The notes beneath the pieces are model-generated. The model saw only the letters and a list, made by a program, of their open reading frames with translations, was not told the origin of the DNA and ran no database searches. From a virus, in UHGV virus genome UHGV-0805728: a stretch of DNA of 12,967 nt; one strand, 5' to 3'. Positions 804 through 12,510 of this stretch are shown here, piece after piece (within the stretch, counting starts at the first letter, position 1; the number at the start of each line of letters is the position of its first letter). The translations under genes and the position numbers were made by a program.

Positions 804-1163
804 CTACAGATGGTTGCTGAGGGTGTCAAGAAAATTATCCCGTTCTTTCTCAGAGTTTTCATGGGTGTAGCTGAAAAACATATCGAGAATAACCTTATTG
901 ATATATTCCAGCTCCTCTGTATTCAGATACTTATCAGGATCTACAATGACTTCCCAAATATCGTACAGACCGCACTCATGATATCCCCAACGCCACTCAA
1001 TTGTTAAACCGAGCGGCAAATCTTTACCGTCACAAACAACCTTCCATCTACAGATGTTGGTATCTGGACGCACCTGTGCACGGTATACCTGTACAAAATC
1101 CAATTTGAATTTGAGGTACTCGTCATACAATTTAAGTACAAAGCTCTCGATTTGTGGAGACAC
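804..1163 (-). CDS. hypothetical protein; probably the C-terminal part of a ~177-aa gene interrupted by a frame break (see 1223..1336)
   Basis: ORF-track 119 aa, but its start is a GTG at 1163 with no ribosome-binding site; its frame is open upstream to about 1247 and runs into the 37-aa ORF at an A5 run. Confidence 0.55.
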   Translation of the reverse strand: MSPQIESFVLKLYDEYLKFKLDFVQVYRAQVRPDTNICRWKVVCDGKDLPLGLTIEWRWGYHECGLYDIWEVIVDPDKYLNTEELEYINKVILDMFFSYTHENSEKERDNFLDTLSNHL

Positions 1164-1222
1164 TTTTGCAGCAAACTGTGCGTATTTGTACTTGCACTGG
1201 ATGATCTTTCTGCGTTTTGCAG

Positions 1223-1336
1223 TTAAATTTTTGCAGACAACTGTTCTTCAGTGTACCTCCACCTACGGTCAACAAACGCAACAGGGTCTTTGTCCCCATA
1301 GAGATCTTCCCAGTTAATCAGAAGCATACCTGTCAT
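1223..1336 (-). CDS. small ORF (37 aa), likely the N-terminal part of the frame-disrupted gene continuing in 804..1163
   Basis: ATG at 1336 overlaps the TGA of ORF 1333..1566 (ATGA); product MTGMLLINWEDLYGDKDPVAFVDRRWRYTEEQLSAKI; stop TAA at 1225-1223 immediately after an A5 run (1228-1232). Confidence 0.35.
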   Translation of the reverse strand: MTGMLLINWEDLYGDKDPVAFVDRRWRYTEEQLSAKI

Positions 1337-1566
1337 TCCTCCACAACTTCAAGGCCTTTACCGCCCCTCTCTGGAAGATTGCCGAGGGATAGGTAGTAAG
1401 TATAGTCTGGTGAGATTCTACCCGCTTGTGCCCCTGCAGCGATCAAATCTTTTCCAGTGATCATAACAACGTTTTTGTTTGCCGTCAACCGTTTTGCTAC
1501 TACAATTTTACCGACGCAATCGATCAGTGATGGATACCCTAAATCTGTAAGAAATTTAACTTTCAT
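1333..1566 (-). CDS. hypothetical protein (77 aa)
   Basis: ORF-track; ATG at 1566 preceded by AGGAGGTAG; no family recognised. Confidence 0.6.
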   Translation of the reverse strand: MKVKFLTDLGYPSLIDCVGKIVVAKRLTANKNVVMITGKDLIAAGAQAGRISPDYTYYLSLGNLPERGGKGLEVVEE

Positions 1567-1605
1567 GCTACCTCCTACTTCTACCGTCCCTGGTAAGATA
1601 AATTA

Positions 1606-2004
1606 TTACTGAACAGAACGCGGAGCTGGGAAGGATAACTCTTCTAAAGAGAAGATTTCATTTCCTACCACCCAAGTTGCTGGATCATCTGGATCAACAG
1701 GTTGGATAATCATTACCTCATCAACCTTGCACACACGTTTCCCACCTATGGTAGCGTCAGCCACTAACATACGCGGCTCTTCAGAAATGCACAGGTAGCC
1801 ACCTCGGCCCACTGTTCCTTCTACAGGATCCTGCCCTTTGACAACGATGAATACCTTTTCTCCTGTGGCGATATTACTTTGCACACGGACAGTTTGACCA
1901 ACTTTAGAGGTACCGATCTTGGTGGCTTCAAACATTAAATCCCGAATTACTGTTGCATAGTTGCCGGAAACTTTCTTACCTTCTTTGGTGATCTCAATCT
2001 TCAT
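1606..2004 (-). CDS. hypothetical protein (132 aa)
   Basis: ORF-track; start ATG at 2004 overlaps the stop of the upstream ORF (ATGA); no family recognised. Confidence 0.65.
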   Translation of the reverse strand: MKIEITKEGKKVSGNYATVIRDLMFEATKIGTSKVGQTVRVQSNIATGEKVFIVVKGQDPVEGTVGRGGYLCISEEPRMLVADATIGGKRVCKVDEVMIIQPVDPDDPATWVVGNEIFSLEELSFPAPRSVQ

Positions 2005-2273
2005 AATTTAGGCTCCTTAAATGAATCTATGTAGTCAATTAAATCCCAAGCATCGCGATGGGCTGTCAGAGGATATACTTCTCCGAGAGGGATCATAGCG
2101 GCAAGTCTATCAAAAACCCAGTCTGGACGCAACATTTTATGGTGATATTCCCACTCACCTTCTACAGACTTTTTCTGAGTGATCAGGATCTCTGTGTAGT
2201 GTTTAGCCTGTCTTGAGTAGATTGAAAATGACTTGTACATAAATGGCCCCTCTTGTTGAAAACAAGAATACAT
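2001..2273 (-). CDS. hypothetical protein (90 aa; alternative start ATG 2240 gives 79 aa)
   Basis: ORF-track; ATG at 2273 lies 2 nt after the TAG of the upstream ORF; the internal ATG at 2240 has the better ribosome-binding site (AGAGGGG, about 6 nt spacing). Confidence 0.55.
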   Translation of the reverse strand: MYSCFQQEGPFMYKSFSIYSRQAKHYTEILITQKKSVEGEWEYHHKMLRPDWVFDRLAAMIPLGEVYPLTAHRDAWDLIDYIDSFKEPKL

Positions 2274-2275
2274 AA

Positions 2276-2560
2276 CTACCAGGTCACTGTCAAGTAGGCA
2301 ACTGTGTTATTTTTCTCTGGCGATATGCCAACAACATCCACTTGCAGACCTCCTGCCCTTAAATCTCCGACAATGTGTGGGAAGTAATCCGAGAGGTGTG
2401 ATGGAAGATTTATCGAAAATCCGCACCCCAGAAAGCCTGCTAACGCTTTATTTTGTATCTCCCCTACAATCGCATCGTAAATAGAGTTAAGCTCGTCAGG
2501 AAGCGTTACAGGACGTTTTAGCGCTAACTGGTGTAATTTGTCCTTAGCACTCATTTTCAT
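2276..2560 (-). CDS. hypothetical protein (94 aa from ATG 2560; ORF track extends to a GTG at 2590)
   Basis: ATG 2560-2558 overlaps the TGA 2559-2557 of the methyltransferase gene (ATGA coupling); the GTG at 2590 would overlap that gene by 34 nt. Confidence 0.55.
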   Translation of the reverse strand: MKMSAKDKLHQLALKRPVTLPDELNSIYDAIVGEIQNKALAGFLGCGFSINLPSHLSDYFPHIVGDLRAGGLQVDVVGISPEKNNTVAYLTVTW

Positions 2561-3090
2561 TTCAGATCTACCTCTGGTGGTGCCAACCACATAAATGGCG
2601 GCAAATCTAAACGGTTTTTCTTATCCCACACAAAATATGCATATGCTTGCCCGTCAGTTCTGCCATTGGACTGGAATGATGGGCGCTTAGATATTGTAAT
2701 CACTGTGGTAGGGGCATTTTCAAGCCACCACTCAAAACGTGCTTTACTTTCCAAGAAGTTGAGACGCAAAAGCATAATAACTACGTCAGCATCTTTCAAC
2801 GCCTTTTCTACAAACTCACGGGCCAGGCTGTAGGGAGGGTTGGTTATAATGCAGTCAACATGGTTGTATTCTGTATTCAAGTAGTCCACACCTTCTTGAA
2901 TCTCTCCCCATGCAGATCCTAACGGCATACGGGAGTAGAATACCCCGTTAACACTGTTTCGGCACGGCTCCAGATAAGTCCAGTTCTCCGGGAAATCAAT
3001 TAAGTTGTATAGACCTTCTGCACACCAATCTGGTGTAACATACTCATCATAAGCATTACGTTGTTCGTCAGGTTTTCTAGCGCAAGTCAT
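2557..3090 (-). CDS. DNA N6-adenine methyltransferase, small phage Dam-like (177 aa)
   Basis: Catalytic motif IV DCIITNPPYS (NPPY, typical of N6-adenine methyltransferases) and size about 170-180 aa as in small phage Dam-like enzymes; ATG 3090 preceded by GGAGA. Target site not determinable. Confidence 0.6.
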   Translation of the reverse strand: MTCARKPDEQRNAYDEYVTPDWCAEGLYNLIDFPENWTYLEPCRNSVNGVFYSRMPLGSAWGEIQEGVDYLNTEYNHVDCIITNPPYSLAREFVEKALKDADVVIMLLRLNFLESKARFEWWLENAPTTVITISKRPSFQSNGRTDGQAYAYFVWDKKNRLDLPPFMWLAPPEVDLK

Positions 3091-3104
3091 GCAAATCTCC
3101 AGAT

Positions 3105-3130
3105 CATAAAAGCCCTCCGAAGAGGGCTTT
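3105..3130 (-). terminator. intrinsic-terminator-like hairpin with UUCG tetraloop between the ClpP-like gene and the methyltransferase gene
   Basis: Perfect 9-bp inverted repeat, plus strand aaagccctc (3109-3117) cgaa gagggcttt (3122-3130); as minus-strand RNA AAAGCCCUC-UUCG-GAGGGCUUU followed by UAUGAU. It sits 12 nt after the stop at 3142-3144. Confidence 0.45.
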
Positions 3131-3141
3131 AAGATTAATAT

Positions 3142-3855
3142 TTAAGCTTCTTCGACAATTCCTGCACCCAGGATTTTTTCATTAAGCTCTTTTGCGGTTT
3201 TAATAATATTATCCACCAGACGCTTACGGGTCTTGTCTTTCACCTGAACCTCTTCGCCACCGTTCAGAGTAGTCTTCAATTGAGACAGAATATCCTGAAG
3301 TTCAACGACAGAGAATCGCTGCAGATCTTCTGAGGTAATCTCGCCGAGAGCGATCCGGACGGTCTCACCACTTTCCATCTGCAGATTCAGGAACACGGTG
3401 TGAACATCATCTTTCACACCATTTGCTTTTGCAGACTCGACAGCATGAACCAGTTCGTCCAGGGAGGTGCACTGGTGAATCTCTGGCAGACCTGCTTCAC
3501 CTAGTACCCCTTCATCACCTTTTGCCAGGAGCTTTTTCGGTTTCTGCCCGTTCTGGATACGCTGAATATTTTCATCGTCCAGAATGATAGCTCCAGTTCT
3601 AGCTGCCAGCTCCTCTCCGTCCAACCACACTTCTCCACCAGCCGTGATGGATGCGATCTCATCTTCTGTCAGCACCCCACCGTAGATTTTTCGATCAGAC
3701 GTTCGAAACGTTTTTTCCAGTAGCTGACCTGAGTATTCATGTTCACACCGTTGCCATAAGTGCCACCTTGGTAGTAGTGGAACATAAATTCTGTGTCCGG
3801 AGCCACAGTGCGTTCTTTGCAACCCAGCCATAAGATTGTCCCAGCAGAGCAGCAC
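3142..3855 (-). CDS. ClpP-like peptidase, C-terminal fold continuation plus ~175-aa extension (second frame of a frame-disrupted gene)
   Basis: ORF-track 237 aa, but the first ~48 residues (MLLCWDNLMAGLQRTHCGSGHRIYVPLLPRWHLWQRCEHEY...) look out-of-frame. From about 3712 downward the frame reads ...GGVLTEDEIASITAGGEVWLDGEELAARTGAI, which aligns without gaps to the ClpP C-terminal region (recalled E. coli ...RDRFLSAPEAVEYGLVD) once joined to ORF 3669..4187. Confidence 0.5.
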   Translation of the reverse strand: MLLCWDNLMAGLQRTHCGSGHRIYVPLLPRWHLWQRCEHEYSGQLLEKTFRTSDRKIYGGVLTEDEIASITAGGEVWLDGEELAARTGAIILDDENIQRIQNGQKPKKLLAKGDEGVLGEAGLPEIHQCTSLDELVHAVESAKANGVKDDVHTVFLNLQMESGETVRIALGEITSEDLQRFSVVELQDILSQLKTTLNGGEEVQVKDKTRKRLVDNIIKTAKELNEKILGAGIVEEA

Positions 3856-4187
3856 ATCCCTTCAGCATGTACAACAACGCTTGCCTGAGACTCGCGGAAT
3901 GCCTGTAGATATGCCATTGCAATGTGCACGCAACCACCAGGGCTATTGATGATCACCCGAATGCTTTCTTCCGGCTGAGCCATACGGATCGTCTGCAGAC
4001 GAGACATATGATCTTGTAGGTCTTCCAAGTCGTCGATATAAAGAACGTGGTCAACAACAGGTGTTGGGTAGCTATATGTCTCCATAATACCACCTGGCAT
4101 ACCAAACATTTTATTACTCATCGGTTCGAAGCCGTTCTGTTTTTCTTTCATGCCGTGTACCATGGTGCTGCGAGGTGTTAAATTCAT
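3669..4187 (-). CDS. ClpP-family serine peptidase, N-terminal and catalytic portion (first frame of a frame-disrupted gene)
   Basis: ORF-track 172 aa with IINSPGG, GMCCSAGT (Ser-motif region) and FHYYQGG (His-motif region), collinear with E. coli ClpP INSPGG...GQAASMGA...IHQPLGG from memory; ATG 4187 preceded by TAAGGACC. The frame stops before the C-terminal part of the fold. Confidence 0.7.
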   Translation of the reverse strand: MNLTPRSTMVHGMKEKQNGFEPMSNKMFGMPGGIMETYSYPTPVVDHVLYIDDLEDLQDHMSRLQTIRMAQPEESIRVIINSPGGCVHIAMAYLQAFRESQASVVVHAEGMCCSAGTILWLGCKERTVAPDTEFMFHYYQGGTYGNGVNMNTQVSYWKKRFERLIEKSTVGC

Positions 4188-4248
4188 GTGAGGTCCTTAA
4201 TGTTGGAAAATTAAAAGCGATCTATTTAAACCTGATTCTCATTTGCCT

Positions 4249-4560
4249 TTATTTGGCAATTACCATGGAATACTTGCGATTGTCAGAAGCATCACAGGTC
4301 AACGATTGCCAGTCTACCACATACCACGTGTCATTGTCAACAATTACTTTATCACCTGTTCTGTAAAAGGTGTTGCTTTCAATAACACGAGACTCAGTGA
4401 AGAATCGGTGTCTTCGCTCACGTAGTAGAGCCAAGTTGATTATATTACCACCGCTGTCCTTAATCCACACATTCTTGTATCCTTTATTTGCCAAAATTGT
4501 CTCGCCGTTATAGACAAACAGGCAGTAGATTTTATTCAATCTCTCTTGTATCGTAGCCAT
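4249..4560 (-). CDS. hypothetical protein (103 aa)
   Basis: ORF-track; ATG 4560 preceded by GAGGAGAAG and by a near-consensus promoter (4589-4617). Confidence 0.65.
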   Translation of the reverse strand: MATIQERLNKIYCLFVYNGETILANKGYKNVWIKDSGGNIINLALLRERRHRFFTESRVIESNTFYRTGDKVIVDNDTWYVVDWQSLTCDASDNRKYSMVIAK

Positions 4561-4588
4561 ACTGTTCTTCTCCTCGTTTTGTCAGGCA

Positions 4589-4617
4589 ATAATACCTAAA
4601 GCTTGTCTGTTTGTCAA
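4589..4617 (-). promoter_or_regulatory. sigma70-type (phage early-like) promoter P1: -35 TTGACA, 17-nt spacer, -10 TATTAT
   Basis: Minus strand reads TTGACA (4617-4612), aacagacaagctttagg, TATTAT (4594-4589); predicted transcription start about 4582, some 22 nt upstream of ATG 4560. Confidence 0.55.
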
Positions 4618-4635
4618 CAAGTGTTTTAGATATTC

Positions 4636-4656
4636 AAGGGTGGAATAACCACCCTT
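4636..4656 (-). other. RNA hairpin directly after the phoH stop codon (8-bp stem AAGGGTGG/CCACCCTT, 5-nt loop)
   Basis: Perfect inverted repeat, plus strand 4636-4643 and 4649-4656, 5 nt after the TAA at 4664-4662; no U-tract follows, so terminator function is uncertain. Confidence 0.35.
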
Positions 4657-4661
4657 ATATG

Positions 4662-5450
4662 TTACTCGGAAACAGGAGTCCAAATACGGTTTGCACGGTC
4701 CTCAATAAGATTGAGTGCAATCTGACGACCCAGCCCAGAACGAACAACATCGTCAGGACTATCAAAGCTAATCATCCCAACTTCAGGATCTGGATGTCGT
4801 GTAAAGAAATCTGTCACCCATGCAAGGCCAGATTTACCAGGGATGTCTCGTTGGCTATTGTCCCCCATAATTACAAGGGTGGCCTGATCGGAAATCCTTG
4901 TGATAATTGACAACATTTCTTCAGGGTTAGTTTGCTGTGCCTCGTCAATTAGGACAAAGCATCGTTCATCGAAACTACGACCACGAATGCTTTCAACTTC
5001 ACAAATCTCGATACGGCTGTTCTGACCGTCTCCCAGCATTGCTGCAAAAGCACCTTTGCCAACACGACGACAAATCGTGTCCATCATACTCCGAAGATAG
5101 GGCCACAGTTTCTGCATTGCATTCCCTGGTTTAAATCCTGAAGTCTTTCCTGTCTGAACGTAAGGGCGTGCAACAATGATCTTATCAATCTCGTTTTTAC
5201 GTAACAGATCTCCTGCATAGGCAGATGCCATAAATGTCTTACCAGACCCAAACACACCGTTTACGATAATAATCTTACGTGACCCTAAATAATCAAGATA
5301 CTTTTGCTGCTTCTTATTCATCGGTCGGAGAGCTGGAGCGGTGTGCTCTCGTTCGTCAGCAAATTTCTCAGCAGCTTTACGCAAACGATCAGATTTACGA
5401 GCCTCTCTGGCTTCATCACGCATGCGTTTTGTTTCTTTAGCTCGACCCAT
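4662..5450 (-). CDS. phoH: PhoH-like ATPase (262 aa) with a ~43-aa charged N-terminal extension
   Basis: Walker A GVFGSGKT, Walker B FVLIDEAQ, and GDNSQRD, typical of PhoH-family proteins; ATG 5450 preceded by AAAGGAG. Confidence 0.9.
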   Translation of the reverse strand: MGRAKETKRMRDEAREARKSDRLRKAAEKFADEREHTAPALRPMNKKQQKYLDYLGSRKIIIVNGVFGSGKTFMASAYAGDLLRKNEIDKIIVARPYVQTGKTSGFKPGNAMQKLWPYLRSMMDTICRRVGKGAFAAMLGDGQNSRIEICEVESIRGRSFDERCFVLIDEAQQTNPEEMLSIITRISDQATLVIMGDNSQRDIPGKSGLAWVTDFFTRHPDPEVGMISFDSPDDVVRSGLGRQIALNLIEDRANRIWTPVSE

Positions 5451-5488
5451 GGTGGGACTCCTTTCAGATTGAGATGTGTCTGGAACTT

Positions 5489-5839
5489 TTACTGCAACAG
5501 TTTTTCAATAGCCGCTTCCATGCTGCTTGCAACAGCCTGAACTCGGATATTCATCTCTTCTTGGTGGATCAGCTCCTTAAGCTCTTTAACGGTAAATTCC
5601 TTAGAGAAACCTTCCACCATAATATTGTGTAAGGCTTCTTGCGTGTCTACTTGCAAGAACTTCTCCAGTTTGTTGGCAGAGGCTTCTAAATCAGCCCGAA
5701 TACGAGGATCATCTGTGCGATTCAGCATTAGGCGCAAGCCATCGAGATTAGTAGAAATAGCGTCAGCATGTTGAGTAACTAGCCGTGGCAAAATGAGATC
5801 TACAAACTTATTAGCCAAATCAATACGTTCTTGTGTCAC
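5489..5839 (-). CDS. hypothetical protein (116 aa), predicted helical
   Basis: ORF-track; GTG start at 5839 preceded by GAGGGGG and overlapping the TGA of the 37-aa Lys-rich ORF (GTGA). Confidence 0.6.
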   Translation of the reverse strand: MTQERIDLANKFVDLILPRLVTQHADAISTNLDGLRLMLNRTDDPRIRADLEASANKLEKFLQVDTQEALHNIMVEGFSKEFTVKELKELIHQEEMNIRVQAVASSMEAAIEKLLQ

Positions 5840-5949
5840 TGTTGCACCCCCTCTTCGTCCTCATGATGTTTCTTTTCACGCTTGTGTTTTTTCTTAAGCT
5901 CAAGCGCAATCTCTTTTTTGTACGCCTTCTTCAAGGCCTTTTTAGCCAT
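5836..5949 (-). CDS. small Lys-rich basic peptide (37 aa)
   Basis: ATG at 5949 preceded by AGAGGGGG and by consensus promoter P2; product MAKKALKKAYKKEIALELKKKHKREKKHHEDEEGVQQ. Not in ORF track (under 60 aa). Confidence 0.4.
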   Translation of the reverse strand: MAKKALKKAYKKEIALELKKKHKREKKHHEDEEGVQQ

Positions 5950-5980
5950 TTGGCACCCCCTCTGCTTTCATTTTACGATA

Positions 5981-6010
5981 ATTATACCCGTCTAAACAAA
6001 GCTTTGTCAA
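5981..6010 (-). promoter_or_regulatory. sigma70-type (phage early-like) promoter P2: -35 TTGACA, 18-nt spacer, -10 TATAAT
   Basis: Minus strand reads TTGACA (6010-6005), aagctttgtttagacggg, TATAAT (5986-5981), starting 4 nt after the nrdG stop; predicted transcription start about 5974, upstream of ATG 5949. Confidence 0.6.
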
Positions 6011-6013
6011 CAA

Positions 6014-6487
6014 TTAGTCTACCTGAACCCACCCACCTGCTACTTTTTTAAACATTCTTTGGTTATCGCTTCCTCGGAACGGTTTCTTGGTTGGCAAATC
6101 TTTTATATACTTACCATCAATGATGATATCAGCCAGTTTAAGAACATCACTAGAGATATGGTCAAATGTGAACCCAGTATACACAAGAATAGTTTTCTTG
6201 TCACCAAATTTTTCCTTAATTTTCTCCATCAGGCCAATAATACCTGGCTCATTATAGTATGCCAAGGGTTCTCCACCCAGCAGAGAGATACCGCACACAG
6301 ACGGGTTGTCCAAATCTGACAAGATTTTTTGCAAGTCTTCCTCGGTGAACTCTCTCCCCTTATCTTTTGACCAAAATGCCTGATTAAAGCAACCAGGGCA
6401 AGCGTGTGGGCACCCAGATACCCACAAGGCAGTTCTAATACCTGGCCCTTCGGTGTAAGATATTTCTGTGTATCCGGCAATGTTCAT
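6014..6487 (-). CDS. nrdG: anaerobic ribonucleotide reductase activating protein (radical-SAM activase), 157 aa from ATG 6487
   Basis: Cys cluster GCPHACPGCFN characteristic of NrdG-type activases; the ATG at 6487 has an ACGGAG ribosome-binding site and an ATGA overlap with the upstream small ORF. The ORF-track start at 6505 has no ribosome-binding site. Confidence 0.85.
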   Translation of the reverse strand: MNIAGYTEISYTEGPGIRTALWVSGCPHACPGCFNQAFWSKDKGREFTEEDLQKILSDLDNPSVCGISLLGGEPLAYYNEPGIIGLMEKIKEKFGDKKTILVYTGFTFDHISSDVLKLADIIIDGKYIKDLPTKKPFRGSDNQRMFKKVAGGWVQVD

Positions 6488-6600
6488 AGATACTCCGTAC
6501 CACATTCAGGGCAATACCAAATAAAATCATCCAGCGCCTTGCACCAACGAAGATTACAATGACAACCGCACTTGCAAATTTTATAAATACCTGTAGACAT
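6484..6600 (-). CDS. small Cys-rich zinc-ribbon-like protein (38 aa)
   Basis: ATG 6600 preceded by GAGG at about 8 nt; product MSTGIYKICKCGCHCNLRWCKALDDFIWYCPECGTEYL with 7 Cys (CKCGCHC...CPEC); stop overlaps the nrdG ATG (ATGA). Not in ORF track (under 60 aa). Confidence 0.4.
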   Translation of the reverse strand: MSTGIYKICKCGCHCNLRWCKALDDFIWYCPECGTEYL

Positions 6601-6630
6601 ACTGCACCTCATAGTTCACTGTGTATCAAC

Positions 6631-6660
6631 AATATGCCACATCCTTGTGACTTTTGTCAA
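6631..6660 (-). promoter_or_regulatory. candidate sigma70-type promoter P3 (perfect -35 TTGACA, weak -10 CATATT or TATTGT)
   Basis: TTGACA at 6660-6655 begins 3 nt after the nrdD stop, as in P1 and P2; the -10 element is only a 4/6 match. Confidence 0.3.
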
Positions 6661-6663
6661 GCA

Positions 6664-6903
6664 TCAGCAACCACAACTTCCATAGTGCTTAACTCGCTCG
6701 ATAACTTCAGCTTGCTTGCCTCTATTGTAAGGACGTGAGTTAGGACTGGAAAGGTATCCAGACACACGTCGAATTACACTGATCGTTCCCTCTTCGTGGT
6801 TTCCACAGTCTGGACATACAAAGCCTTTAGCTGTCGCGCTGAACTCACCAGAGAAACCACACTTGAGACATTTATCCACGGGCTGGTTAATACCAAAATA
6901 CAT
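6664..6903 (-). CDS. nrdD: anaerobic ribonucleotide reductase NrdD, C-terminal glycyl-radical/zinc-ribbon segment (third frame piece)
   Basis: YFGINQPVDKCLKCGFSGEF...CPDCGNH...RRVSGYL matches the recalled E. coli NrdD C-terminus (YMGINVPVDRCFECGFTGEF...CPKCGNH...RRVCGYLG); its frame is open only from 6909 and overlaps the central ORF. Confidence 0.8.
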   Translation of the reverse strand: MYFGINQPVDKCLKCGFSGEFSATAKGFVCPDCGNHEEGTISVIRRVSGYLSSPNSRPYNRGKQAEVIERVKHYGSCGC

Positions 6904-8555
6904 AATGTGTTATACCCGAAGTCAACAAGAGCCTCTAAAGCATCCAGGTTGTTTTTCAGGTTAGGTGTCTCTATGTATCCAATGTTGCCACCAGAGGAGA
7001 TCATAGCAAAACCTTCTTCATACTTCCACTTATCAAAAGGTGAACTATTGATCCATACTGGTTGGTGGAAACTGTTGGTGATATATTCATGCTCGTGCTT
7101 CAATACCTCAGGATATTCACGATCCAGACAGGTTGCAGCTTTGTAGCATAAGCTTTCAGAAGGGGTGCCGTACAAGCTGAATGCTAGACCACTTTCCTTT
7201 TTGTACCGATCACAAGCATCTTTCATGTGCTGAAGGATTCCAAGAGCTAAAGCCTTGTCTCCCTCTCTCCCCAAAATCTGACAGGTTTCATACACACCAA
7301 TATACCCAATACTGATGGAAGCGTACCCGTCATAGAAGAGTTTATCAATACTCTCTTCAGGATCCAAGCGAGCAAGAGCGCCTTCACACCACATGATGGG
7401 GTTCTGACCTGCCTTTGTCCCTTTTAGGCGGTTAACCCTTACAAGGTGAGCTTCATATGCCAAATCCAGATACTCGTCAAGAACGGTAAAGAAGTCAACA
7501 CCTTCTGTTTTAGCTTTTGCTGCAATCATTGGTAGGTTGAGGCTAACAACACCCAAGTTGAATCTGCCGAGGTATTTCTCCTCACCTGTTTCTAAGTCAT
7601 TGTATTTGCTAAGAAAACTCCGGCAACCCATGCTCGTTACTTTGCCATCTGTAGAACCTGTCACCTTACGATTTAGCGGAACAGAAACAAAGTCAGGATA
7701 AATTCGCTCTGCAGAGCATTCCAGAGCTAATCGTTTCAAATCATAGTTAGGATCCTCAGGGTTCATGTTGACACCCTCTTCTAAGAAGAACAGCACTTTA
7801 GGGAACACAGGTGTGATCCGTTCTTCACCAAGACCCATTTTGTGGACTTTCAGGTAGTTTTTGGTAATCATTCTACCAAATACCGAGGTATCAAGTCCTA
7901 AACTTAATGTTATGAACGGAGTTTGCCCGTTGACAGAAGTTAATGTGTTGATTTGATAAAGCAACGTCTGCATACTGTCAAACACGTCTTTATCGGTCAT
8001 CTGCATTGCAACGCCTTCAGCATCCGGCAACCAATGCTCCTGACAAAATTTAAGGTTCTTCTCATAGGTAGCTTCAGCATACTGTGCCAGATAATGATCA
8101 ATATGGCTCATAGTCTGACCACCATATTGAGCACTAGCCACTGCACTAGAGATTTGGCTAAGGATTGTTGTTGCAACCCCTATTGACTTAGGCTTGCTGA
8201 CATGGGCGTTACCAATGTTGAATCCGTTTTCCAGCATATCTGGATAATTTACCAAACAACAGTTTGTTAGAGGGCTGATCAGATAGTCAAGATCATGTAC
8301 ATGGATGAAGCCTTTTATTGTGCTCTTCGGAGACACGGTCTGGCAGGATCTGTGTTGATGCAAGGTGTTTGCTAAGGATGCCTGCAAGCAGGTCACGATG
8401 AGTGTGTACATGATTGGTAGGCTTATTTGCGTTTTCTTTTGTAAATTCATCACAAGTGCGATCCAAGAAGCCACTAATATCTGCAAGAAGTTTTCCACCT
8501 GCCTCTCTGTTATTATCCCTTGTCTGTCTGTATTGGATGTATTCTCTGGCTGCAC
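6774..8555 (-). CDS. nrdD: anaerobic ribonucleotide reductase NrdD, central catalytic segment (second frame piece)
   Basis: From about 8315 the frame reads KGFIHVHDLDY...NIGNAHVSKPKSIG...QYGGQT, collinear with recalled E. coli NrdD (GDIHYHDLDY...MGNAEIEPPKSIS...IYGGTT). The first ~80 and last ~43 residues of the 593-aa ORF look out-of-frame. Confidence 0.85.
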   Translation of the reverse strand: MQPENTSNTDRQGIITERQVENFLQILVASWIALVMNLQKKTQISLPIMYTLIVTCLQASLANTLHQHRSCQTVSPKSTIKGFIHVHDLDYLISPLTNCCLVNYPDMLENGFNIGNAHVSKPKSIGVATTILSQISSAVASAQYGGQTMSHIDHYLAQYAEATYEKNLKFCQEHWLPDAEGVAMQMTDKDVFDSMQTLLYQINTLTSVNGQTPFITLSLGLDTSVFGRMITKNYLKVHKMGLGEERITPVFPKVLFFLEEGVNMNPEDPNYDLKRLALECSAERIYPDFVSVPLNRKVTGSTDGKVTSMGCRSFLSKYNDLETGEEKYLGRFNLGVVSLNLPMIAAKAKTEGVDFFTVLDEYLDLAYEAHLVRVNRLKGTKAGQNPIMWCEGALARLDPEESIDKLFYDGYASISIGYIGVYETCQILGREGDKALALGILQHMKDACDRYKKESGLAFSLYGTPSESLCYKAATCLDREYPEVLKHEHEYITNSFHQPVWINSSPFDKWKYEEGFAMISSGGNIGYIETPNLKNNLDALEALVDFGYNTLCILVLTSPWINVSSVVSLVSSARQLKALYVQTVETTKRERSV

Positions 8556-8787
8556 ATTTTAAACCCATATCCATAAGAGCATCTTCAACAAGGATATGGA
8601 TATTTTTTACAGAGATTGTGCCCTGATCGGCTGGTAGATTGTTAGCAACAGCTTCATTAACCGCGCAGGCGATCCGGTAAGCTTCTTCTTCAGTATGTCC
8701 AGACTCAAGTAAGGCGGACTCTGCCGCCTTGATCACCTTAATTCCGTTATAGACCTCTTCTCTACCGTCTCGTTTTACAACTTTCAC
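8293..8787 (-). CDS. nrdD: anaerobic ribonucleotide reductase NrdD, N-terminal ATP-cone segment (first frame piece)
   Basis: MKVVKRDGREEVY... and ENANKPTNHVHTHRDLLAGILSKH match the NrdD N-terminus (recalled E. coli NENANKDSKVIPTQRDLLAGIVAKH); ATG 8787 overlaps the nrdC stop (ATGA); frame ends at 8293 right after an A4 run. Confidence 0.8.
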   Translation of the reverse strand: MKVVKRDGREEVYNGIKVIKAAESALLESGHTEEEAYRIACAVNEAVANNLPADQGTISVKNIHILVEDALMDMGLKCAAREYIQYRQTRDNNREAGGKLLADISGFLDRTCDEFTKENANKPTNHVHTHRDLLAGILSKHLASTQILPDRVSEEHNKRLHPCT

Positions 8788-9062
8788 TTTTTCTCTCCAA
8801 AATTGTTCTTAACAAAAGAGATGAAATCGTCAGCACCACCAATGTGGACACTGTCAAGGTCGCTTTCTAAGAAGATTTGAGGTAACGTTCTGGGAACAAT
8901 TGGGCTACACTTCTTAATAAGCTCTTCTTTTGTATAGCCCTCCCCTAGCGTCTTGTATACAAAAGGTAGACCTTTACTGACTGCAAATTCTTTTGCTCTT
9001 ACACAATGTGGACAATTATCCTTACCGTAAATAATGATGAAAAAAGATTTTTCACAACTCAT
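8784..9062 (-). CDS. nrdC: glutaredoxin-like redoxin (92 aa)
   Basis: CPHC active-site motif near the N-terminus, TLPQIF (cis-Pro region) and HIGGADDF (GG motif), positioned between nrdB and nrdD. Confidence 0.8.
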   Translation of the reverse strand: MSCEKSFFIIIYGKDNCPHCVRAKEFAVSKGLPFVYKTLGEGYTKEELIKKCSPIVPRTLPQIFLESDLDSVHIGGADDFISFVKNNFGEKK

Positions 9063-9065
9063 ATA

Positions 9066-10154
9066 TTAAAACTCCCAAATTTCTTCTTCAGCGTCGTTAA
9101 CAGTTGTGTTGACGCGGTAGTCAGTGTTCGACATTTCTTGGTTCGCCGTCTGTTGCAATGAAGGTTTCATCCACACCTGCATAAACGGTAGCGGGTCCTT
9201 TGTTGGCGGCACAAAGTCTTTGTCGATGTCGTAGTAATCATAAATCGGTGAGCAGTTATAGTCAACCCATTCTTTAAGCAACGGTGAGTTAAGACCTATA
9301 ATCGCTCTTCCTTCGCTGAAAATATAGTCACTCCAACCGTACTCCTTGGTTCGTACTTCATCAAGAATCTCTTTTAACTCTCCCTTTATCTCAAGGAAGC
9401 TTTTCTCCCATGCTGGATCATTAAGCAGGATATCAATGATGGCAAAATCACCTTTCGAATGCAGCATTTCGTCAAGCATGATTTTTTGAACAAGCTGCGC
9501 CACCTGAACAAAAATACCCTGTTCAGCTACTGCGAAAGTGCATGCAAAACTTGCAATAAACTCAATACTCTCCAGAGCTAAAAGTGCAAAAAGCGCTCTA
9601 AGAATGCATTTCCGTACAATATCTTCTTCAACACTGGAAGGATCCAGTCGGTATTTTGCACCAATAACCTCAAGCTCTTGCATATATTTGACAATAACCC
9701 CAGATCTGCTTAGCACGTTCTGGTTTTCCTGAATTTCTTCTATGATCTCGCGAGCATTAGGTAGGCACTGTCTAACAATCTCTGAGTAAGTAAGTGCGTG
9801 AAGAACTTCAATCTCCGACTGCTTCATCAACAGAGCGAAAAGCTCACTATTAGTGATGAATGGTGAAAAGAGGCAGATGATTGATCTTGCCGCAACGCTA
9901 TCAGCCTCCCATTGCCACATCAAGGTCTGCACCATCACGTCATAAGTTGACTTTGAGCATGTTACAAAATCTGAAATAGATTGCGACAAATCCACTTCAT
10001 CCTCTGCCCAATCCTGTTCTTTTTGTTTTTTATACAGTTCAAACAGTTGTGGGTATTTTTTATTGATAGAGTCATACATCCCCATTTGCTGTCCAAGAAA
10101 CAGAGGATAGTCACCAGTTTTATGAGCGGTGTTCTCAGCATTAAATACAGCCAT
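9066..10154 (-). CDS. nrdB: ribonucleotide reductase class Ia small (beta) subunit (362 aa)
   Basis: Full-length collinearity with E. coli NrdB from memory, including ESIEFIASFACTFAVAE (iron-ligand region; E. coli EAIRFYVSFACSFAFAE) and the acidic C-terminal tail ...EEEIWEF; ATG 10154 preceded by AGAGG. Confidence 0.9.
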   Translation of the reverse strand: MAVFNAENTAHKTGDYPLFLGQQMGMYDSINKKYPQLFELYKKQKEQDWAEDEVDLSQSISDFVTCSKSTYDVMVQTLMWQWEADSVAARSIICLFSPFITNSELFALLMKQSEIEVLHALTYSEIVRQCLPNAREIIEEIQENQNVLSRSGVIVKYMQELEVIGAKYRLDPSSVEEDIVRKCILRALFALLALESIEFIASFACTFAVAEQGIFVQVAQLVQKIMLDEMLHSKGDFAIIDILLNDPAWEKSFLEIKGELKEILDEVRTKEYGWSDYIFSEGRAIIGLNSPLLKEWVDYNCSPIYDYYDIDKDFVPPTKDPLPFMQVWMKPSLQQTANQEMSNTDYRVNTTVNDAEEEIWEF

Positions 10155-10165
10155 TATTCTACCTC

Positions 10166-10186
10166 TAAAATGGGGCCGAAGCCCCC
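10166..10186 (-). terminator. GC hairpin with UUCG tetraloop plus U4 tract between nrdA and nrdB (terminator or attenuator-like)
   Basis: Plus strand ggggc (10172-10176) cgaa gcccc (10181-10185); as minus-strand RNA GGGGC-UUCG-GCCCC followed by AUUUUAG, ending about 12 nt before the nrdB ATG. Confidence 0.4.
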
Positions 10187-10193
10187 TTTAAAA

Positions 10194-11507
10194 TTACAGT
10201 GCACAACTTTCGCAGTATGGATCTTCAACTGAACTATCTGCGATCAAAGGATAGTTCTTTCTGGTTTCATCTTCAGCCTGTTTCTTGGCATGAAGTTCCT
10301 CTGCCAGTGAGTCACCAGCACCAACCCTAGAGTTTAAATAATACCATGTCTTCATCCCGAATTTAGTGGCACGGATAAGGTACCCTAGTTGCTCCTTCAT
10401 TGAAATTTTACCATCTTTCAACTTGGTGTAATCTATGTATAAATCAGCGCTGATTGCCTGACCTGTGAATTTTTGAATCACGGCATACATATCGATCATG
10501 TCGTTGGTATCAACGTCCCAAGCCGAAGTGTAATACTCTTTCAACTCATCGTATTCAGGAACGATAAACAGCACCTGCCCTTGTGGAGACTTTTTAAAGA
10601 TAATGTGCTCACGGACAGGATAAACCCCGTTAGTGGTGTTTGTTGCCAGCGAAGAGCTTTCATTAGGCATATATGCTTCAAGAACGCTATTACGTAGCCC
10701 ACCATTTTCAATGATTTGTTTACGTAACCCTTCCCAATCCTGTTTAAGAGAAGGATCTTTCACCACACTGTCGACCTCTTTGTTATAGGTGTCGATTGGT
10801 AACCAACCCTCCGGGTATTTTGTTTTATGCATCCACTCACAGACACCACGCTCTTTTGCCAATCGTAAACTTGCTTTGTGCAAGCTGTAGCTGTGAAGCT
10901 CTGCAAGATCATGGACAAGCTGTTTACTTTCCGGAGATCCGTAAGTAACCTTGTGGCTGGCAATAAAATGTGCAACATTGGTAAGGCCAACCCCGATAGA
11001 TCTGCGTTTTTTAACCGTGCTCTCCATATTCTCATACGGATATGTCATGATTTCCATAACATTGTCAATCATAAGCACCGTGTAGTATGCAACATCTTCA
11101 TACTCCTCTGGGGTAACCCTCCCAGCTACAAGAGATGATAGGAAGCACAATGCAACCTCACCATCATCAGCATCGTACTTGAAGATATTACGCATATCTG
11201 AATAGCCTTTTGTCGGAAGGGCTATCTCGGCACACAGGTTGCTTGAATAGATTACATCTTTAAAAGGTGTATGTCTATTCATCTCGTCTGTCCAGTATAC
11301 GTACAGTCTTCCTACCTCAGTACGCTGCGTGATAAGTTCAGCAGCAAGATCTCTAGCACGGATCCATGTTTTAGGAATACTGTCATCTTTAGCGATCCGA
11401 TCAACCTCTGCATCAAACTCTTCCATAGACATGGTGAAGATGCCTTCATGTAGCTGAGGTGCGTGCTTATAAGAAACAAGCATCCAATCTAAATTTTTAG
11501 TCCACAC
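10194..11507 (-). CDS. nrdA: ribonucleotide reductase class Ia large (alpha) subunit, C-terminal catalytic segment (second frame piece)
   Basis: 437-aa ORF with SNLCAEIALPT (active-site Cys loop; recalled E. coli SNLCLEIALPT) and collinear downstream sequence; its GTG at 11507 has no ribosome-binding site. Confidence 0.9.
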   Translation of the reverse strand: MWTKNLDWMLVSYKHAPQLHEGIFTMSMEEFDAEVDRIAKDDSIPKTWIRARDLAAELITQRTEVGRLYVYWTDEMNRHTPFKDVIYSSNLCAEIALPTKGYSDMRNIFKYDADDGEVALCFLSSLVAGRVTPEEYEDVAYYTVLMIDNVMEIMTYPYENMESTVKKRRSIGVGLTNVAHFIASHKVTYGSPESKQLVHDLAELHSYSLHKASLRLAKERGVCEWMHKTKYPEGWLPIDTYNKEVDSVVKDPSLKQDWEGLRKQIIENGGLRNSVLEAYMPNESSSLATNTTNGVYPVREHIIFKKSPQGQVLFIVPEYDELKEYYTSAWDVDTNDMIDMYAVIQKFTGQAISADLYIDYTKLKDGKISMKEQLGYLIRATKFGMKTWYYLNSRVGAGDSLAEELHAKKQAEDETRKNYPLIADSSVEDPYCESCAL

Positions 11508-12510
11508 GGTTGATAAACGACCTATTAATACCTATGGAATAATCCATAGTGTTGATTCTTTTTGAAGCAACAGTCATAGGGTTTCTCAAACGGATTAGCT
11601 CATCAATCTGAGGGTCCAGTGCAAGGAATGACACTGTTGCCGAACCACCACGGGATTGTTGTCTATTCTCCTTAACCCCGGCATCAATACCACGATAATA
11701 TGGAAGCTTGCCCATATGTTTAATCGTGTTACCACGAACACCATCGCCTGCAGATCTTGACGATAAATAGTAGCCAATACCTGCTTGGTTAACCGTCATT
11801 GTGTACGCAACTTCCCGTGCCACACCAATAGACTTTGCTGTATCGTCAGCTTTTATTACGCAACAAGATGCATACCCTGTCTTACCTGTGCGTAGACCGT
11901 TTAAGTACGGTGTCGGAGCATTGATCTTTAAGTCTGACAGATAAGTGTATAATTTTACAACATCGTTAATACGGCGTTCTTTCGGCATATTCTTCATGAC
12001 AGCCATCGCTATCCCCATAAACATCATCTGGGGAGATTCAAACAGGGTGTCTTTAAGAGTATCCTTGATCCCGTATTTGTCACGAAACTGTTTAAGGACT
12101 GCATAGCCATAACCGAGATCTTTACTGTGATCAATAACAGTATTTAAAGTGTTTAACTCAGTAAAGCTATAACCCATATCCTCCCAATACCCTTTCTCAA
12201 CCATGGTATTGTAGAATGAGGGTAAGGAAGGGATCTTTGTAAATCCTCCAAAAGCCTCTTTGTAGATCTGACCAATAAGAACACGACCAGCCATACGGGA
12301 ATGTGCTTCGTCTTTACGGCTAACACATGAATCTATAATAGCCTGGTTAACTTCTTTGGTTGTGCATCCATCATACAGACGTTTGTATGCATCCATTGCA
12401 ATATGTGACCAATTGCCGTTACCGTCGTCACCGAAAATAGCTGCCTTATTTAAACGTTCTGGATCGAATTCAACTTCACATCCGTTACTTTTAATTACTT
12501 TGGTGATCAA
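11497..12510 (-). CDS. nrdA: ribonucleotide reductase class Ia large (alpha) subunit, N-terminal segment with ATP cone (first frame piece)
   Basis: 337-aa ORF starting MITKVIKSNGCEVEFDPERL (ATP-cone-like) and ending at ...INTMDYSIGINRSFINRVD (recalled E. coli ...RHMDYGVQINKLMYTRL); TTG start at 12510 preceded by GGAGGAAG at 7 nt spacing. Confidence 0.9.
   Translation of the reverse strand: MITKVIKSNGCEVEFDPERLNKAAIFGDDGNGNWSHIAMDAYKRLYDGCTTKEVNQAIIDSCVSRKDEAHSRMAGRVLIGQIYKEAFGGFTKIPSLPSFYNTMVEKGYWEDMGYSFTELNTLNTVIDHSKDLGYGYAVLKQFRDKYGIKDTLKDTLFESPQMMFMGIAMAVMKNMPKERRINDVVKLYTYLSDLKINAPTPYLNGLRTGKTGYASCCVIKADDTAKSIGVAREVAYTMTVNQAGIGYYLSSRSAGDGVRGNTIKHMGKLPYYRGIDAGVKENRQQSRGGSATVSFLALDPQIDELIRLRNPMTVASKRINTMDYSIGINRSFINRVD

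What the first reader, a model, noticed from the sequence alone, without database searches (positions are those of the whole stretch)
1223..11531. Pattern: five single-nucleotide frame breaks in 13 kb, three at A-runs of the coding strand
The breaks are at about 1228-1232 (-1), 3711-3716 (-1), 6900-6909 (-1), 8313-8316 (+1) and 11500-11531 (+1). Each preserves protein collinearity exactly. The most economical explanation is indel error from a homopolymer-prone or modified-base-sensitive sequencing platform, in which case the ORF calls here are artefactually fragmented. Alternatives are a decaying or defective phage copy, or transcriptional or ribosomal slippage at A-runs. All-or-none behaviour across the five sites would distinguish these.
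Basis: inference. Interest (0 to 1): 0.75.

Follow-up and report, generated by a model that had tools for sequence, protein, structure and literature searches.

The report
Assembly indel errors splitting phage genes
The five frame breaks are real in this sequence, but they are almost certainly single-base sequencing or assembly errors in an ordinary rV5-like E. coli phage genome, because other assemblies of the very same phage genotype carry all four affected genes intact.

Summary
The window is the nucleotide-metabolism block of a Vequintavirus (rV5-like E. coli phage), with all genes on the minus strand. Alignment to relatives shows exactly five window-private 1-nt indels. Each is a T on the + strand (an A on the coding strand):
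- 1228-1232: T6 to T5
- 3685/3686: a lone T lost
- 6910-6911: T3 to T2
- 8313-8316: T3 to T4
- 11501: an extra T

They split a 174-aa gene, the ClpP-like protease, NrdD (twice) and NrdA. Its site 2 (3711-3716) is about 26 nt off.

Undoing the five bases gives proteins 771/771, 707/707, 348/348 and 173/174 identical to a 99.9%-identical independent contig. Two other assemblies of the same genotype have zero substitutions against the window. They lack the window's indels but carry different private single-T indels of their own. One of these contigs ends exactly at two of the window's sites.

No relative shares any break. The sites have no conserved slippery motif. The lineage is under strong purifying selection.

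Verdict: this is an artefact. Interest is low.

The parts
1228..1232 (-). Break 1: T5 on + (A5 on the coding strand) where relatives have six. A 1-nt deletion (-1) in the 174-aa gene.
   Evidence: L002, L025, L029-L033 and L037 all have T6. Contig L027 ends exactly after the fifth A.
804..1327 (-). 174-aa gene ('putative glycosidase' or hypothetical in relatives). In the window it is split into a 34-aa ORF (1223-1327) and a C-terminal part, which lies within the listed 119-aa ORF 804-1163.
   Evidence: The repaired product is 173/174 identical to the L025 protein.
3685..3686 (-). Break 2: a single T is missing between these two bases (-1). It is not in a homopolymer. It lies in the ClpP-like protease gene.
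   Evidence: Eleven relatives carry 13 nt in the core where the window has 12.
3142..4187 (-). ClpP-like protease gene (348 aa when repaired). In the window it is split into ORFs 3669-4187 and 3142-3855.
   Evidence: The identical protein in L025 hits PF00574. The exact intact sequence is seen on 48 contigs.
6910..6911 (-). Break 3: TT where relatives have TTT, a 1-nt deletion (-1). It lies near the 3' end of nrdD.
   Evidence: All 17 relatives covering the site have TTT.
8313..8316 (-). Break 4: T4 where relatives have 3 nt, a 1-nt insertion (+1). It lies in nrdD. The run itself is not conserved in relatives (TCT, CCT and CTT variants occur).
6664..8787 (-). nrdD, anaerobic class III ribonucleotide reductase (707 aa when repaired, GTG start). 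In the window it is split into ORFs 8293-8787, 6774-8555 and 6664-6903.
   Evidence: The identical L025 protein hits PF03477, PF13597 and PF01228.
11501..11501 (-). Break 5: an extra T between G11500 and C11502 (+1). It is not in a homopolymer. It lies in nrdA and creates an immediate TAA stop.
   Evidence: Contig L027 starts exactly at the base after it.
10194..12510 (-). nrdA, class Ia ribonucleotide reductase alpha subunit (771 aa when repaired, TTG start). In the window it is split into ORFs 11497-12510 and 10194-11507.
   Evidence: The identical L025 protein hits PF00317 and PF02867. The exact intact sequence is seen on 31 contigs.
3711..3716 (-). It is unchanged in all relatives, so it is not a break site.
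   Evidence: One search shows the sequence. The alignments report no indel there.

Best explanation
The five breaks are single-base consensus errors. They were introduced when this copy of an rV5-like (Vequintavirus) phage genome was sequenced and assembled from indel-prone or low-coverage reads. The phage itself encodes intact NrdA, NrdD, ClpP-like protease and the 174-aa protein. The fragmented ORFs in the window are artefacts, and no recoding or gene decay is involved.

Shown: the indels are private to this assembly, they are absent from same-genotype assemblies, and repair restores identical proteins.

Inferred: the cause is technical rather than a rare real variant. The source also seems to be the Malawian-twin gut virome data set, whose platform I recall as 454 pyrosequencing but could not verify.
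For: 1. Only five window-private indels exist. All are 1 nt and all lie in coding sequence.

2. Same-genotype assemblies disagree only by indels.
- L027 (Logan assembly of ERR975171) equals window 1228-11500 with 0 substitutions. It is intact at 3685, 6909 and 8313, and it carries its own private T5 to T4 deletion at window 2615.
- L037 (CYGL01000294.1) matches the whole window with 0 mismatches. It is intact at all five sites, and it carries three private single-T deletions of its own at 10026, 11494 and 11856.
- That makes nine indels and no substitutions among three assemblies, with no indel shared.

3. Three window-lineage SNVs against L025 sit at 5958, 10307 and 12142. L037 shares all three, and L027 shares the two it covers. 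So the lineage's substitutions replicate across assemblies and the indels do not.

4. The two ends of L027 fall exactly on sites 1 and 5. This is expected if the reads branch there in the de Bruijn graph.

5. L025 (ERR11010907) is 99.90% identical and intact at all five sites. The repaired window proteins match it at 771/771, 707/707, 348/348 and 173/174 positions.

6. Every relative that could be scored at a given site (7 to 17 of the 18 compared, depending on the site) has the intact length. The truncated products are absent from a collection of 15 billion proteins. The intact NrdA, NrdD and ClpP-like sequences are on 31, 4 and 48 contigs, and L025's one-residue variant of the 174-aa protein is on 2.

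7. Synonymous to nonsynonymous codon differences against L002 are 45:1, 35:5, 10:0 and 16:7.
Against: - No reads were available, so read-level support for each variant is unknown.
- The contig ends of L027 at sites 1 and 5 suggest that both variants occur more than once in that read set. A real minority variant would produce the same pattern.
- Two of the five indels are outside homopolymers, and only 1 of the 11 T runs of 6 or more is affected. The classic homopolymer-error signature is therefore incomplete.
- All nine indels in the three assemblies are T on the + strand. Run composition explains most of this but not all of it.
- The sequencing platform could not be verified.
Confidence: 0.93

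Rival explanations
1. The indels are real mutations. The window would represent a defective or minority variant of the phage population, in a gut virome or lysate, in which dispensable nucleotide-metabolism genes have been knocked out by single-A indels.
For: The L027 contig ends exactly at sites 1 and 5, which hints that two variants coexist in that read set. NrdA, NrdD and accessory genes are plausibly dispensable when host enzymes are present (general knowledge, not tested here).
Against: - There are five indels and zero substitutions against same-genotype assemblies. That is not a natural mutation spectrum.
- The sister assemblies have different private indels of the same kind, which points to noise.
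- None of the truncated products is on record anywhere.
- No relative shares any of the breaks.
Confidence: 0.05
2. The breaks are programmed recoding. Ribosomal -1 or +1 frameshifting, or transcriptional slippage at A-runs, would restore full-length proteins from the broken genes.
For: At site 1 (GCA AAA ATT) and site 4 (AAA AGG), a tRNA-Lys could re-pair after a 1-nt slip and give exactly the native sequence. This comes from reading the sequence.
Against: - Relatives, including same-genotype copies, encode all four proteins in a single frame. No recoding is needed.
- No X XXY YYZ heptamer is present at any site.
- Sites 2, 3 and 5 offer no re-pairing.
- The run at site 4 is not conserved (TCT, CCT and CTT in relatives), and the core at site 2 also varies.
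- The longest A-run at a break is 5 nt. From general knowledge, that is too short for efficient transcriptional slippage.
Confidence: 0.01
3. The genes are pseudogenes of a decaying phage remnant, such as a defective prophage or a degraded copy.
For: Four genes are broken within 13 kb.
Against: - There are no other lesions. The window is collinear with complete 135-138 kb lytic Vequintavirus genomes over 100% of its length.
- Purifying selection is strong, for example 45:1 synonymous to nonsynonymous in nrdA.
- There are zero substitutions against the intact copies.
- The window has no match in 5,426 complete E. coli genomes.
Confidence: 0.01

Closest known systems
Artefactual frameshifts from indel errors in 454, Ion Torrent or unpolished long-read assemblies
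   Same: Single-base indels, mostly in or next to A/T runs, split otherwise intact genes. They are not reproducible between assemblies of the same genome, and the proteins are restored by 1-nt correction.
   Different: Only 1 of the 11 longest T runs is hit, and two errors are outside any run. The profile looks more like low-coverage consensus noise than pure homopolymer miscalling. The platform is unverified.
Vequintavirus (rV5-like) nucleotide-metabolism module: nrdA-nrdB-grx-nrdD-nrdG-phoH-clpP-like-MTase
   Same: The window is 93% identical over 100% of its length to more than 110 phage records and 98% identical to OX460980.1. Gene order is the same.
   Different: In those records the four genes are single ORFs. 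The window also lacks the HNH-bearing insertions that some relatives carry in nrdD.
Programmed -1 frameshifting, for example E. coli dnaX at A AAA AAG or phage tail chaperone G/GT
   Same: The only likeness is superficial: a frame change next to a short A-run at sites 1 and 4.
   Different: There is no heptamer, no conservation in relatives and no dual-product logic. Same-genotype copies are in frame.

Membership tests
Sequencing or assembly indel artefact | The indels are private to one assembly and absent from independent assemblies of the same genotype. | tested here: met
   L027 and L037 have 0 substitutions against the window and are intact at every window site they cover. L025 (99.9% identical) is intact at all five.
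Sequencing or assembly indel artefact | A single-base correction restores full-length proteins identical to those of relatives. | tested here: met
   771/771, 707/707, 348/348 and 173/174 identical to L025.
Sequencing or assembly indel artefact | There is an excess of indels over substitutions, and sister assemblies show their own errors of the same kind. | tested here: met
   Nine 1-nt indels and 0 substitutions among the window, L027 and L037, with none shared.
Sequencing or assembly indel artefact | The errors are concentrated in homopolymers. | tested here: inconclusive
   Three of five lie in runs (true lengths 6, 3 and 3) and two lie outside runs. Only 1 of the 11 T runs of 6 or more is hit.
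Sequencing or assembly indel artefact | Raw reads do not consistently support the indel alleles. | not testable with these tools
   No read data can be accessed. The only indirect hint is that the L027 contig ends at sites 1 and 5.
Programmed ribosomal frameshift | The frame break is conserved in relatives. | tested here: not met
   Every relative scored at each site (7 to 17 of 18, depending on the site) has the in-frame length.
Programmed ribosomal frameshift | A slippery motif (X XXY YYZ, or a +1 site with a hungry or stop codon) is present at the shift point. | tested here: not met
   Reading the sequence shows no heptamer at any site. Sites 2, 3 and 5 allow no re-pairing.
Transcriptional slippage | A long A/T homopolymer (typically about 8 nt or more, from general knowledge) lies at the site. 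| tested here: not met
   Runs at the breaks are 5, 0, 2, 4 and 0 nt long in the window.
Pseudogenes of a decaying phage | Constraint is relaxed or further lesions are present (extra stops, deletions, raised nonsynonymous change). | tested here: not met
   Synonymous to nonsynonymous counts are 45:1, 35:5, 10:0 and 16:7 against L002. There are no other private indels and 0 substitutions against the intact copies.
Class Ia RNR alpha (NrdA) and class III RNR (NrdD) | The domain sets are Ribonuc_red_lgN plus lgC for NrdA, and ATP-cone plus NRDD plus Gly_radical for NrdD. | tested here: met
   These are the Pfam hits recorded for the L025 proteins, which are 100% identical to the repaired window proteins.

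The most novel reading that the evidence does not exclude
The single-A indels reflect real heterogeneity within the phage population. Sub-populations of this gut phage would carry on/off frameshift alleles in accessory nucleotide-metabolism genes. The strand-consistent A bias (nine of nine indels across three assemblies) would then come from a biological process, such as polymerase slippage on the coding-strand template, rather than from the sequencer.
Probability: 0.03. Interest if true: 0.4.

Novelty: not a real feature. Interest (0 to 1): 0.07.

Why it matters
The practical consequence is for annotation. Gene calls in this window are fragmented, with NrdA in 2 pieces, NrdD in 3, the ClpP-like protease in 2 and a 174-aa protein in 2. 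They should be merged or corrected before any annotation, pseudogene count or recoding claim. The case also shows that same-genotype contigs in public assemblies can settle such a question without the reads. It reveals no new biology.

Tried and rejected
- I looked for the window's own source. Exact-product look-ups of five truncated ORFs found nothing, and four more fragment ORFs are absent from the collection. The window has no match in complete E. coli genomes. PLSDB has only one 92.9% hit.
- A pattern scan for site 5 found nothing in JGI/ENA metagenome contigs. L037 was missed because of its own nearby deletion. A scan for site 3 found nothing in the GTDB genomes.
- IMG/VR holds only relatives at 79% amino-acid identity or lower, which are not useful at nucleotide level.
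- I tried to verify the platform and study behind ERR975171 and CYGL01. No paper cites the run. The Reyes et al. 2015 paper is not held. The project accession I recalled is not found in the library. The only confirmation is that CYGL01 contigs are named 'Assembly HumMal, Ma_F259_Contig_...'.
- Rfam found nothing in the window at gathering thresholds.
- I looked for a methylation motif such as GATC shared by the five sites. Reading the contexts shows none.
Full report
**What the window is**

All substantial ORFs lie on the minus strand. The whole 12,967 nt matches more than 110 Vequintavirus (rV5-like E. coli phage) genomes at about 93% identity over 100% of its length. It matches OX460980.1 at 98.0%.

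Annotated relatives JeffSchatz and Murica give the gene order, here in window coordinates:

| Gene | Window coordinates |
|---|---|
| nrdA | 10194-12510 |
| nrdB | 9066-10154 |
| glutaredoxin | 8784-9062 |
| nrdD | 6664-8787 |
| nrdG | 6014-6505 |
| phoH-like | 4662-5450 |
| ClpP-like protease | 3142-4187 |
| N6-adenine methyltransferase | 2557-3090 |
| small genes, including a 174-aa 'putative glycosidase' | 804-1327 |

In the relatives, nrdA (771 aa), nrdD (707 aa), the ClpP-like gene (348-349 aa) and the 174-aa gene are single ORFs. In the window they are split into 2, 3, 2 and 2 pieces.

**Checking the observation**

MAFFT alignments of the window with 3, then 13, then same-genotype relatives show exactly five window-private indels. 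Each is 1 nt and each is a T on the + strand:

| Site | Position | Change | Type |
|---|---|---|---|
| 1 | 1228-1232 | T5 instead of T6 | deletion |
| 2 | between 3685 and 3686 | a lone T missing, TAG[T]ATTTTT | deletion |
| 3 | 6910-6911 | TT instead of TTT | deletion |
| 4 | 8313-8316 | T4 instead of T3 | insertion |
| 5 | 11501 | an extra T, TAG[T]CC | insertion |

- Reversing the five bases gives stop-free reading frames of 776, 714, 351 and 181 codons.
- The resulting proteins are identical to those of contig L025 at 771/771, 707/707, 348/348 and 173/174 positions. Collinearity is therefore exact.
That A6 run of the coding strand is unchanged in all relatives, and the real lesion is 26 nt away.
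- Three breaks lie in A-runs of the coding strand (true lengths 6, 3 and 3). Two lie outside any run.

**The decisive comparison**

A look-up of contigs encoding exactly the window's NrdB and a pattern scan of metagenome contigs recovered four very close copies.

- **L025** (Logan assembly of ERR11010907) is 99.90% identical over the whole window. It has 8 substitutions and is intact at all five sites.
- **L026** (ERR2368555) is 99.2% identical and intact at the three sites it covers.
- **L027** (Logan assembly of ERR975171, 10,273 nt) equals window 1228-11500 with zero substitutions.
  - It is intact at sites 2, 3 and 4.
  - It has its own private T5 to T4 deletion at window 2615. There its methyltransferase is called at 160 aa instead of 177.
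- **L037** (CYGL01000294.1, a 22.8-kb contig) matches the entire window with zero mismatches.
  - It is intact at all five sites.
  - It has three private single-T deletions of its own: 10026 (T6 to T5, in nrdB), and 11494 (T5 to T4) and 11856 (TT to T), both in nrdA.

So three assemblies of one genotype differ by nine single-T indels and by no substitution, and no indel is shared. By contrast, the three substitutions that distinguish this lineage from L025 (5958, 10307, 12142) recur in the sister assemblies. L037 shares all three, and L027 shares the two it covers. The lineage's substitutions replicate and the indels do not.

The two ends of L027 also fall exactly on sites 1 and 5. It stops after the fifth A of the run, and it starts at the base after the extra A. 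A de Bruijn assembler behaves this way where the reads branch. This suggests that the window came from the same read set or a sibling one, and that these positions are ambiguous in the reads. That step is inference.

**Wider support**

- Every relative that could be scored at a given site has the intact length. That is 7 to 17 of the 18 compared, depending on the site.
- None of the truncated products is on record among 153 billion gene positions or 15 billion proteins.
- The intact NrdA, NrdD and ClpP-like sequences occur on 31, 4 and 48 contigs. L025's one-residue variant of the 174-aa protein occurs on 2.
- Codon differences against L002 are overwhelmingly synonymous: 45:1, 35:5, 10:0 and 16:7.
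- Well-assembled relatives have no private indels in this region at all. Another contig, L028 from DRR023333, shows three private 1-nt indels of its own, which shows how such noise looks in other data.

**Rivals**

- **Programmed frameshifting or transcriptional slippage.** Same-genotype and related copies encode the proteins in one frame. No X XXY YYZ heptamer is present. Sites 2, 3 and 5 allow no tRNA re-pairing. The runs at the sites are at most 5 nt long, and the sequences at sites 2 and 4 vary among relatives.
- **Decay.** This is contradicted by zero substitutions against the intact copies, by the absence of further lesions, by strong purifying selection and by full collinearity with lytic phage genomes.
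- **Real minority variants in the phage population.** This cannot be excluded without reads, and the L027 contig ends would be compatible with it. However, a spectrum of five indels and no substitutions, together with different private indels in each sister assembly, makes it unlikely.

**Caveats**

- The error pattern is not purely homopolymer-driven. Only 1 of the 11 T runs of 6 or more is hit.
- All nine indels are T on the + strand. T-runs dominate that strand (38 T runs of 5 or more against 6 A runs), which explains most of the bias but not all of it. I leave this as a minor unexplained point.
- CYGL01 contigs are labelled 'Assembly HumMal, Ma_F259_Contig_...' in a table of PMC10888812. 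I believe this is the Malawian-twin gut virome study (Reyes et al. 2015) and that it used 454 pyrosequencing. That is from memory and could not be verified.

**Verdict**

This is not a real biological feature. The four genes should be treated as intact, and the finding deserves a low interest score.

Noticed in passing
L037 (CYGL01000294.1), at window-equivalent positions 10026, 11494 and 11856; L027, at window 2615: Sister assemblies of the same genotype carry their own private single-T deletions. In L037 they break nrdB and nrdA, and in L027 the methyltransferase. Public contigs from this data set are therefore generally indel-noisy.
   Followed up: yes
Window 1228, 3685, 6910, 8313 and 11501, plus the four sister-assembly sites: All nine indels are T on the + strand (A on the coding strand). 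T-run abundance (38 T runs of 5 or more against 6 A runs) explains the long-run cases. The five indels at runs of 3 or fewer are also all T, which is a small unexplained bias.
   Followed up: partly
L024, L029, L030, L032 and L033; insertion points correspond to window about 7926 and about 7603-7625, inside nrdD: In many relatives nrdD is interrupted by one or two insertions of about 0.8 kb that encode HNH_3 endonucleases. Both insertions in L030 give sub-threshold Rfam group I intron hits (31.9 and 27.3 bits, gathering score 50). They are probably homing-endonuclease introns, as known for T4 nrdD. The window has none.
   Followed up: partly
Phage collection hits MG0656xx: About 20 records named 'Campylobacter phage' are 93% identical over the full window to this E. 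coli Vequintavirus block. This suggests that the host labels are wrong or that the lysates were contaminated.
   Followed up: no
PLSDB record CP057073.1: A 137.6-kb 'E. coli plasmid' matches the window at 92.9% over 100% of its length.
   Followed up: no
Window 12508-12510 and 8785-8787: nrdA starts with TTG and nrdD with GTG. Both starts overlap the end of the upstream gene, and both agree with the starts annotated in relatives.
   Followed up: partly
Window about 10165-10190: A GC-rich hairpin (GGGGCCGAAGCCCC[C]) followed by TTT lies between nrdA and nrdB. Relatives differ here by 1 nt in the C-run. The site is intergenic, so the difference is harmless.
   Followed up: no
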